Source: Octopus vulgaris
Lineage: Eukaryota
NCBI GenBank assembly: GCA_951406725.2
Contig: OX597817.1
Location: 38,440,001 to 38,504,000 of the forward strand
Length of the DNA: 64,000 nucleotides
Direction of reading: 5' to 3'
In this document: positions 55,358-57,039 of the stretch, piece after piece
How positions within the stretch are numbered: position 1 is the stretch's first letter
Layout of the letters: each line of letters starts with the position of its first letter
Translations under genes and position numbers: made by a program
The notes under the pieces: generated by a model
What the model saw: the letters and a program-made list of their open reading frames with translations, nothing else
Databases searched by the model: none
What the model was told of the DNA's origin: nothing

Positions 55358-56326
55358 TTTATTGGTCAAAGGGTGGAAAGTTATCGGAGACAATAAGAAA
55401 AAGAGGAGCAAAATAAAGGTGTGAATCTGGAAAAGTGAGGAAGAGTTTGGCAGTCTCTTACAAACAAAAGCTCATCCACCCCGAGTGCTTGGGTCTCGCG
55501 ATTGTTCGAACCTGCTTGAGATGCTGAATTCGCTAGAGAACGAGAAATACTGAGCTAATTAAAGAGGAGATGGGTGATGGTTTATATTAAACACAATACA
55601 GGTTTCAAACTGTAGGTAAAAAGAACACCACAATAAAGTCTATGTACAATTACAGAACCACACTCCAGAGAATGTGGGAAGTTTCACGGTTCTCTCGAAC
55701 TAGAAGACGCCGATGTGTAAATTCGGAAGAATTGCTTTATGGAAGGGATCAGAGTTGTGGACTGATCTAGGCGGCCAGTCCTTTTCCACTCCTTTTTGGA
55801 TACTTTATCCTTAATTGTATTGGTTTCGGGTGACAGATTTTAAAATTATGTTTGTATGCATGTATACATATATACAAAAAGACATGCATATTTACAAACA
55901 GATATATATGTATATATATATATATATATATATATATATATATATATATATATATATACATATATATACATATACATATATGCATATCTATGCATATATA
56001 TACATATATGCATATATATGCATCTATGCATATATATATTTACATATATATATGCAATTATATATGTATATATTTATATGCATATATGTATATATATATA
56101 TGCATATATATGTATATATAGGCATAGATATATATGCTATATATATATATATATATATATATATATATATATATATATATATATATATACACATATATAT
56201 ATATATATATATATATATATATATATATATATATATATATATATATATATATATATATATATATATATATATATATAGAGAGAGAGAGAGAGAGAGAGAG
56301 AGAGATGAGTGTATTTCGTTTTTTTC

Positions 56327-56412
56327 ACTTTCCTGAGGAGAAGATTGCATTGTTTATACCATTTATTCTTTTGAATAATATCAGTGGAATTTTCGAAACA
56401 TGTGTCGAAAGT
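56327..56412 (+). ncRNA. Type I hammerhead ribozyme motif, canonical core
   Basis: Stem I ACTTTC/GAAAGT; CTGAGGA (56333-56339); stem II GAAGATT/AATTTTC with inner hairpin TTATTC-tttt-GAATAA; GAAAC-atgt-GTC with predicted cleavage after 56406. Confidence 0.85.
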
Positions 56413-56599
56413 AAAAATATTTGATTACACTTGCGTTAAACTCCATTTATTTATTCATATATATATATATATATATATATATATATATATATATATATAT
56501 GGTAAAAACGGTAAGATAACAAAAGAAAGAAAGAGACCTCAATATTATGTAAATAGAGGTAATTTATCTGTAAAATAATATGTGACAATTATTCAATAC

Positions 56600-56668
56600 C
56601 CAAGATAAAACTCTGAGTTTCGGATGCCGAGGTGGAAATCCCCAACACCATCTCTTCGGTTATCTTGG
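56600..56668 (-). ncRNA. Hammerhead ribozyme motif with variant CCGAAGA core
   Basis: Stem I CCAAGATAA/TTATCTTGG (9 bp); CCGAAGA; stem II GATG/CATC(C); GAA-ACTC-a-GAGT-T palindromic stem III. Confidence 0.65.
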
Positions 56669-56871
56669 CCATCTGAAAAACGGCATCCGAAAAACTCACA
56701 TATTATTTACAGAATATATATATATATATATATATATATATATATATATATATATATATATATATATATAGTTAATCCAAACATGAAAACACAAAGAGAA
56801 AACACAACAACGCGAGGACGTGGAACAAATATAGTATTATTGGACGCTCAGGAAGTAAGGGAAGAAGGAGG

Positions 56872-56906
56872 GTTTTACGTTTCGAGCGGAGCTCTTCGTC
56901 AGAAAC
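56872..56906 (-). ncRNA. Minimal hammerhead ribozyme motif within module 56771-56977
   Basis: GTTT-CTGACGA-A-GAGC-tcc-GCTC-GAAACGTA-AAAC. Confidence 0.8.
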
Positions 56907-57039
56907 ATAGGAAAAGGAAAGATCCAGAGAAGGGAAGACGGAGGAAAAAAAATCGCCAACGGTACACACGCGGTCATATATATATATATATATATATATA
57001 TATATAAATATATATATATATATATATATATGCATGTAT

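What the first reader, a model, noticed from the sequence alone, without database searches (positions are those of the whole stretch)
56305..56977. Three unrelated hammerheads stacked within 600 bp, separated by (TA)n spacers
Module 1 (+, CTGAGGA, GUC, long stem II), module 2 (-, CCGAAGA, GUU) and module 3 (-, CTGACGA, GUA, minimal) alternate with TA tracts like cassettes, and a fourth TA-embedded element follows at 57040. The two minus-strand sites are about 270 nt apart, so a transcript could release a small RNA of retrozyme size. The most parsimonious reading is repeated targeted insertion into one expanding microsatellite.
Basis: partly seen in the sequence, partly recalled or inferred. 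Interest (0 to 1): 0.75.

Follow-up and report, generated by a model that had tools for sequence, protein, structure and literature searches.

The report
Pile-up of Penelope retroelement ribozyme ends
Four short, unrelated jumping-gene tail ends (three with hammerhead ribozyme motifs, one with a damaged copy of an unusually rewired hammerhead motif) sit side by side in one TA repeat, likely because each family inserts into TA repeats on its own, so the cluster is probably ordinary debris rather than an RNA-making device.

Summary
The three hammerhead motifs are real (cores at 56333+, 56659-, 56902-; minus-strand sites 267 nt apart). They are not one system. Each is the 5'-truncated 3' end of a separate high-copy Penelope-like (PLE) family whose longer copies carry RT plus GIY-YIG: module 2 Hydra clade, module 1 Hydra-like but lacking the cysteine linker, module 3 Neptune/Nematis-type. 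All end in (TA)n. The module 1|2 junction occurs once in the genome, so the stack is not a mobile cassette. With about 50,000 intact motifs, a TA-weighted null predicts tens of such triples; a uniform null predicts about 3. The 267-nt hybrid RNA lacks retrozyme features. The fourth element is an older, non-coding ~700-bp unit. Its family carries hammerhead strands in non-circular order, with stem II supplied from upstream (core opened after A9); four helices are kept across three sequence sets here and in published Naiad ends. I found that layout in no paper; the window's copy is mutated. This scan reported both the PLE-end reading and the rewired motif before, on other DNA of this genome. No cleavage has been tested.

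The parts
55902..56305 (.). Long imperfect (TA)n array followed by (AG)n; the presumed target microsatellite
   Evidence: Tandem Repeats Finder
56304..56456 (+). Module 1: 3' end of a Hydra-like PLE family, 5'-truncated; 98-99% identical to best other copies
   Evidence: RT fold
56304..56316 (-). 13-nt inverted piece of the module-1 family's 153-155-nt tail, joined to the body (PLE-type 5' inversion)
56327..56412 (+). Type-I hammerhead motif 1: CUGAGGA, long stem II, palindromic stem III, predicted cut after 56406
56457..56500 (.). (TA)22 between the 3' ends of modules 1 and 2 (tail-to-tail); this junction is unique in the genome
56501..56713 (-). Module 2: 3' end of a Hydra-clade PLE family with 66-nt tail; 97% identical to best other copies
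56600..56668 (-). Type-I hammerhead motif 2: CCGAAGA (U4C, family-wide), predicted cut after 56609
56681..56713 (-). Inverted 5' piece of module 2, complementary to its stem II-GAAA strand and pLTR end
56714..56770 (.). (TA)28 spacer
56771..56975 (-). Module 3: 3' end of a Neptune/Nematis-type PLE family with a long CA-rich 3' UTR; 98-99% identical to best other copies
56872..56906 (-). Minimal type-I hammerhead motif 3: CUGACGA, extra A, palindromic CG in place of stem III, predicted cut after 56876
   Evidence: PMC4209133 description
56976..57042 (.). Imperfect (TA)33 spacer
57043..57451 (+). Module 4: 3' part of an older (83-85%) non-coding ~700-bp unit that occurs head-to-tail elsewhere
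57276..57352 (+). Damaged copy of the family's rewired (S-G-C order, core-opened) hammerhead-like motif; site would be after 57300; this copy has GAGA for GAAA and broken stems I, II and III

Best explanation
The cluster consists of the truncated 3' ends of four unrelated high-copy repeat families, each ending in a TA tract, and it likely built up through four independent target-primed insertions into one (TA)n microsatellite. Shown: family identity, fixed 3' ends with variable 5' ends, 5' inversions, upstream RT and GIY-YIG frames for modules 1-3, uniqueness of the 1|2 junction. Inferred: a PLE protein cuts the TA array, primes reverse transcription near the RNA 3' end and stops early, so only the last 150-400 nt, which always hold the pLTR hammerhead, are left; the split TA array becomes the 'spacers' and stays a target. 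Module 4 (83-85% to relatives) likely came first, module 2 (97%) next, modules 1 and 3 (99%) last. The ribozymes are passengers of their parent elements; here they have no element promoter or like partner and are predicted to be mostly inactive, module 1 being the most likely to cut.
For: Genome search gave 1746, 1141, 1378 and 4049 first-look candidates for modules 1-4, 40 scored each. TA tract right after the family 3' end: module 1 18 of 25 (5 of the other 7 run on into the family tail), module 2 17 of 19 with an end found (20 examined), module 3 21 of 25 (window copies included), module 4 33 of 40 with an end found (44 examined). 450 exact matches of the module-1 end plus TATA, 0 for the reversed control. 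15 of the 40 scored module-2 places have an adjacent inverted partial copy. Module 1: 517-aa open frame ending about 210 nt before the core (L086) whose predicted fold matches reverse transcriptases only at the top (9 matches at E up to 0.001; model pLDDT 62). Module 2: pLTR-ORF-pLTR copy with cores 3,280 nt apart, RWK, DKT, CxCX5C, GIY-YIG (L155). Module 3: L151 and L149 are colinear (81.7%) from RT/GIY-YIG frames to the module end. 21 of 167 other copies have a different family's motif within 600 bp, in mixed orientations (10 same, 8 tail-to-tail, 3 head-to-head). The 1|2 junction has 1 match, this locus; a 1|3 tail-to-tail junction occurs at 2 other loci. TA-weighted null: about 68 intact triples and 243 four-motif tiles expected genome-wide. 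(TA)n preference and pLTR hammerheads are published for these clades (PMC8557442).
Against: 0 of 167 other copies had two other families within 600 bp, and 0 of 33 motifs in the random sample had any, so this stack is rare. The TA-weighted null is an upper bound: only 20 of 40 random motifs had a TA tract within 200 nt of their 3' side (control 11%), and the uniform null gives about 3 triples. Given its own TA content the tile has P about 0.007 for four motifs, and insertions may themselves lengthen TA, which makes that null partly circular. No empty or partly filled allele was seen; stepwise gain is inferred from identity only. Pfam gave no RT match for any of the frames and only sub-threshold GIY-YIG matches for modules 2 and 3. 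No phylogeny was built.
Confidence: 0.85

Rival explanations
1. Same insertions, but this locus is a true hotspot beyond its TA content (each insertion or the long array makes the next more likely).
For: Other-family motifs are denser within 600 bp of a copy (0.14 per kb) than at 600-1500 bp (0.09 per kb) or in random DNA (1 per 13 kb); neighbour rate 21 of 167 against 0 of 33, Fisher p 0.03; tile P about 0.007.
Against: The 1.5-fold local excess is what shared TA targeting predicts; tens of triples are expected genome-wide under the TA-weighted null.
Confidence: 0.2
2. The stack works as a composite retrozyme-like unit: an antisense transcript is cut by hammerheads 3 and 2 to release a 267-nt RNA that circularises and is copied again.
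For: The two sites are on one strand, 267 nt apart, within the 150-450-bp range of animal retrozyme monomers (PMC7229834 passages).
Against: Retrozymes are tandem copies of one unit with one ribozyme (PMC7229834; preprint 10.64898/2026.07.22.740005); here the ribozymes are unrelated, so a ligated circle could not re-form stem I (inference from sequence). The junction is unique. Single minimal motifs showed no cleavage (PMC4209133); a PLE hammerhead needed its protein (PMC11167929); U4C lowers activity (PMC3088659); the hammerhead fold of module 2 is 8 kcal/mol above the best fold with the inverted piece present (13 kcal/mol without it, so folding energy discriminates poorly).
Confidence: 0.04
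3. The juxtaposition is an assembly artefact joining repeat copies through TA tracts.
For: No contig piece from 4 public runs spans modules 1-3; the TA tracts were not covered.
Against: Short-read contigs are not expected to cross 44-57-bp TA tracts; each module has copy-specific ends of the PLE inversion type; two-family neighbours are common.
Confidence: 0.03

Closest known systems
Hydra clade of C-terminal EN+ Penelope-like elements, including Hydra-1_Obim (Craig et al. 2021, PMC8557442; passages, section 11, supplement rows and parts 23-24)
   Same: RT then GIY-YIG without CCHH, DKT motif, hammerhead in the 3' pLTR, (TA)n targets, tails and inverted 5' copies. The module-2 frame resembles Hydra-1_Obim closely (compared by eye).
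   Different: Module 2 has a family-wide U4C core (52 of 80 copies examined; 11 unreadable). Module 1 has no cysteine in the linker (0 in 5 of 5 copies read) yet still ends in TA, and has a 55-nt stem II region.
Neptune/Nematis-type PLEs with minimal hammerheads (Cervera and De la Pena 2014, PMC4209133, parts 1-2 of 4; PMC8557442)
   Same: Module 3: extra nucleotide after A9, G10.1-C11.1, palindromic 15.2-16.2, 4-bp stem I; CX4CxxC linker and CCHH in the upstream frames; most motifs scattered as truncated singles.
   Different: Nothing essential; 3' UTR is long (about 1.6 kb to the module) and CA-rich. Neptune was not separated from Nematis.
Animal non-LTR retrozymes (Cervera and de la Pena 2020, PMC7229834, passages; preprint 10.64898/2026.07.22.740005, part 1 of 5)
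   Same: Type-I hammerheads a few hundred bases apart; module 4's family is non-coding and occurs head-to-tail (7 of 20 loci).
   Different: Modules 1-3 are unrelated ends of coding elements, not tandem copies of one unit; module 4's motif is not type I.
Type-SGC hammerhead ribozymes (Eckert et al. 2023, PMC10085705, parts 3-5 of 8 and passages; supplements not seen)
   Same: Module-4 family has the S-G-C strand order, a short linker from stem I to stem II and a fourth helix.
   Different: The paper assumes CUGANGA and its stem II arm are contiguous; here the better-paired stem II arm lies upstream of block S. Published SGC RNAs were not found in genomes of known organisms; this motif is in animal DNA (568 exact pattern matches).

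Membership tests
Type-I hammerhead ribozyme (modules 1-3) | Core CUGANGA...GAAA...UH with stems I and II in type-I order | tested here: met
   module 2 has U4C, a known natural variant (PMC3088659); module 3 lacks loop III as minimal PLE motifs do
Type-I hammerhead ribozyme (modules 1-3) | Site-specific self-cleavage | not testable with these tools
   no assay; Rfam models gave no hammerhead match
EN+ PLE (modules 1-3) | Single RT plus C-terminal GIY-YIG ORF upstream of the hammerhead-bearing end | tested here: met
   L086/L088, L155/L091, L151/L149; RT fold for module 1; GIY-YIG E 0.0084 and 0.00063, below Pfam cut-off
EN+ PLE (modules 1-3) | pLTR tandem, tail and inverted 5'-truncated copies | tested here: met
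   pLTR-ORF-pLTR seen for module 2 only
Hydra clade (module 2) | RWK, DKT, CxCX5C linker, no CCHH, CxxC | tested here: met
   L155 frames, against section 11 of PMC8557442
Hydra clade (module 2) | C-terminal CxH motif | tested here: inconclusive
   copies end in SCP/SSP without a clear CxH; the paper calls the motif 'possible'
Hydra clade (module 1) | DKT, no CCHH, CxxC and CxH | tested here: met
   L088, L086
Hydra clade (module 1) | CxCX5C linker | tested here: not met
   0 cysteines in 5 of 5 copies read, 6 examined; filed as Hydra-like only
Hydra clade (module 1) | RWK motif | tested here: inconclusive
   the three long copies fetched are 5'-truncated before it
Hydra, Neptune or Nematis clade | Placement in the RT phylogeny | not tested
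   no tree built; reference sequences were only read in the paper's supplement
Neptune/Nematis-type PLE (module 3) | CX2-5CxxC linker and CCHH in the GIY-YIG domain | tested here: met
   L151 6372-7118; first cysteine changed in L149
Non-LTR retrozyme (modules 1-3 as a unit) | Tandem copies of one unit, each with the same type-I hammerhead | tested here: not met
   modules unrelated; junction unique
Non-LTR retrozyme (modules 1-3 as a unit) | Accumulating linear and circular monomer RNA | not testable with these tools
   no RNA holder listed
Type-SGC hammerhead (module 4 family) | Blocks in S-G-C order with stems I and III | tested here: met
   40 of 47 copies parsed; mean 5.8 of 6 and 3.6 of 4 pairs (30 copies were chosen by a pattern that fixes part of these stems)
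Type-SGC hammerhead (module 4 family) | CUGANGA directly followed by its stem II arm (block C intact) | tested here: not met
   upstream arm 3.98 Watson-Crick pairs of 5 against 1.86 downstream (4.28 against 3.66 with G-U), 50 copies scored, 11 skipped; in Naiad_Ovul only the upstream arm pairs (by eye)
Naiad clade (module 4 family) | N-terminal GIY-YIG, C-terminal RT ORF | tested here: not met
   no such frame upstream in 15 + 30 + 20 loci; the unit is non-coding and head-to-tail in 7 of 20 loci

The most novel reading that the evidence does not exclude
The fourth element's family carries a working hammerhead ribozyme of a layout not in print: strands in S-G-C order, the chain opened inside the core between A9 and G10.1, and a fourth helix bracing it. 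The same layout ends Naiad retroelements reported to lack hammerheads, so Naiads and non-coding ~700-nt passengers would use a hidden ribozyme. This locus would then hold ribozyme ends typical of three TA-targeting PLE lineages, plus a Hydra-like family that targets TA without the linker zinc finger thought to guide it.
Probability: 0.65. Interest if true: 0.75.

Novelty: new variant of a known kind. Interest (0 to 1): 0.45.

Why it matters
The stack itself matters little: it shows how shared (TA)n targeting makes cassette-like arrays out of unrelated debris, a caution for retrozyme hunting by ribozyme spacing. Two side results matter more. (1) The rewired motif of module 4's family, if it cleaves, breaks the assumption that the CUGANGA block cannot be interrupted and would explain why Naiad elements seemed to lack hammerheads ('half-core' entries in PMC8557442). 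(2) Module 1's family gives a direct test of the idea that the linker zinc finger directs TA targeting, since it lacks the cysteines and still ends in TA (it could be moved in trans by another family). The novelty class refers to module 4; modules 1-3 alone are new members of a known kind and would score about 0.25.

Tried and rejected
Rfam scans of the window and of 56300-57460 gave only low-complexity matches below gathering scores. Pfam did not detect RT in any frame; a sequence search of solved structures gave nothing. Sequencing runs: no RNA holder listed. Minimum-free-energy folds neither show nor exclude the hammerhead folds. A standard SGC reading of module 4 (stem II arm downstream) was my first reading and was replaced. 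G-C/A-U association at the end of stem I in module-4 copies (10 A-T, 38 G-C, 4 + 4 mixed, 1 C-G of 57) was not counted as covariation because I chose some copies for it and CpG decay could produce it. One search had an indexing error in the downstream-arm count and in the module-4 end count; both were redone. Permuted-layout descriptors found 0 SGC and 0 core-opened hits in the random sample plus window, as in shuffles, so they give no density. No host gene was found near the cluster (ORF list 44000-64000; no spliced-gene search). Lunse et al. 2017 on dimeric PLE hammerheads was not held; I saw only its title.

Full report
Setting. The window is G000:C4:38,440,001-38,504,000 of a 2.8-Gb animal genome, rich in microsatellites (136 rows). 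The nearest named proteins to one of the elements are from octopuses.

Observation. All three motifs are present as described: cores at 56333 (+), 56659 (-) and 56902 (-), predicted cuts after 56406, 56609 and 56876, the last two 267 nt apart. The modules are unrelated in sequence and separated by TA tracts. The same descriptor gives 10 strict hits in 52 random 10-kb stretches and none in three shuffles, about 54,000 intact motifs genome-wide by extrapolation; counting decayed homologues gives 40 in 520 kb. Rfam does not recognise them (0 of 40 matches).

Each module is the end of a repeat family. Searches returned 1746, 1141, 1378 and 4049 candidates for modules 1-4 (40 scored each). Copies share a fixed 3' end followed by TA (18 of 25, 17 of 19, 21 of 25; 33 of 40) and have variable 5' ends, often with an inverted partial copy (15 of 40 scored module-2 places). 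The window copies of modules 1 and 2 carry such inverted pieces (56304-56316 and 56681-56713). Tails and 5' inversions are described for PLEs in PMC8557442 (passages).

Parents. Longer module-1 copies carry a 517-aa open frame with YRDD, and DKT in another copy, ending about 210 nt before the ribozyme core; its predicted structure (pLDDT 62) matches reverse transcriptases, including telomerase. Module-2 copies carry RWK, DKT, CxCX5C and a GIY-YIG without CCHH, and L155 shows pLTR-ORF-pLTR with cores 3,280 nt apart. These are the Hydra features of PMC8557442 section 11, and the frame resembles Hydra-1_Obim by eye. Module 1 lacks the linker cysteines in 5 of 5 copies read, so I call it Hydra-like. 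Module 3 runs through a CA-rich 3' UTR into frames with YIDD, CX4CxxC and CCHH (L151 and L149 colinear at 81.7%): Neptune/Nematis-type. Its motif fits the minimal PLE hammerhead of PMC4209133.

Is the stack more than chance? 21 of 167 other copies have a different family's motif within 600 bp, none has two, and 0 of 33 in the random sample has any. Orientations are mixed. The 1|2 junction occurs once and a 1|3 junction twice elsewhere, so the stack is not copied as a unit. Expected 1.2-kb tiles with three intact motifs: about 3 under a uniform model and 68 under a TA-weighted model; with four homologues, 2 and 243. The TA model is an upper bound and partly circular. The stack is therefore rare but expected several to tens of times per genome; an added hotspot effect is not excluded. 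Identity to best relatives (85%, 97%, 99%, 99% for modules 4, 2, 1, 3) suggests different ages. Public contigs did not cross the TA tracts, so stepwise gain is inferred, not seen.

The 267-nt RNA. It would need an outside promoter and two cuts. Single minimal motifs did not cleave in vitro (PMC4209133), the Anolis PLE hammerhead needed its protein (PMC11167929, passages), U4C lowers activity (PMC3088659, passages), and module 2's inverted piece can pair with its GAAA strand. A circle would join halves of unrelated ribozymes and could not re-form stem I. It fails the retrozyme definition of tandem like units (PMC7229834, passages; preprint 10.64898/2026.07.22.740005, part 1 of 5).

Module 4. 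I noted before any look-up that its family holds the hammerhead strands in a non-circular order; 568 places match that pattern exactly, 0 the reversed control. That order is type SGC of PMC10085705 (parts 3-5 of 8), known from metatranscriptomes. Earlier notes of this scan spoke of a 'core-opened' form at Naiad tails, which I then tested. In 50 scored copies (11 skipped) an arm upstream of block S pairs with the stem II 3' arm better than the bases after CUGAUGA (3.98 against 1.86 Watson-Crick pairs of 5; 4.28 against 3.66 with G-U), and a fourth helix holds 5.5 of 6 pairs. The diverged copy L242 changes both sides of stem II (GAGCA/UGCUC to GAAGG/CCUUC), of stem I and of the fourth helix. An unrelated family (L083, L116, L155, L236) has the same layout with GGCUG/CAGCC. 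The published Naiad_Obim and Naiad_Ovul 3' ends, read by eye, show it too (stem II GACACC/GGUGUC, stem I 6 bp, stem III 5 bp, fourth helix 5 bp); Naiad_Ovul is listed there as 'HHR_half_core'. Module 4's family has no ORF in the loci examined and is head-to-tail in 7 of 20, so it is likely a non-coding passenger of about 700 bp. The window's copy has GAGA for GAAA and broken stems and is predicted dead. Four paper searches found no description of this layout; PMC13282606 (passages) has no 'hammerhead' in its main text; most subscription papers and the supplements of PMC10085705 were not seen.

Verdict. The interest lies in the neighbour, module 4, whose family motif is a probable new hammerhead variant that this scan has also reported from other DNA of this genome, and in the linker-less Hydra-like family. 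No cleavage has been shown for any of them. Interest 0.45.

Noticed in passing
window 1131-1580: Near-perfect inverted pair of a fifth hammerhead family (CTGATGA, 60-nt stem II region, cores at 1245- and 1465+), the right arm ending in TA; typical PLE inverted insertion.
   Followed up: partly
window 5721-5833, 32436-32770, 34686-34779: Further decayed ends: a module-3 relative, a module-4 relative (GAAA intact, stem III and stem I each with one mismatch) and a sixth family.
   Followed up: partly
L083, L116, L150, L155, L236: A second, sequence-unrelated TA-inserted family with the same core-opened layout: stem II 5 bp, stem I 6 bp, stem III 4-5 bp and an 8-bp fourth helix.
   Followed up: partly
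L242:235-303: Diverged relative of module 4 with both-side changes in stems I, II and the fourth helix, in an apparent tandem of roughly 270-bp period.
   Followed up: partly
L031, L036, L039, L042, L044: Module-1 family has an Asn-rich linker with no cysteine where Hydra elements have CxCX5C; two named octopus proteins annotated as 'myb-like' or 'uncharacterized' are its nearest hits and look like the same kind of element.
   Followed up: partly
modules 2 and 3 families genome-wide: U4C cores are common: 52 of 80 module-2 copies and 23 CCGACGA against 43 CTGACGA among 115 module-3-group copies (39 not read); another subfamily has CTGTNGA.
   Followed up: partly
window 56277-56305: The (AG)n run begins exactly at module 1's inverted tail piece; it may have grown from the junction or predate it.
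   Followed up: no
window 55092-55356: 33-bp imperfect tandem array, about 8 copies, 550 bp left of the TA array.
   Followed up: no
L154:540-3836: 1,099-aa open frame of a non-LTR RT element with an N-terminal C2H2 finger next to a module-2 copy.
   Followed up: no
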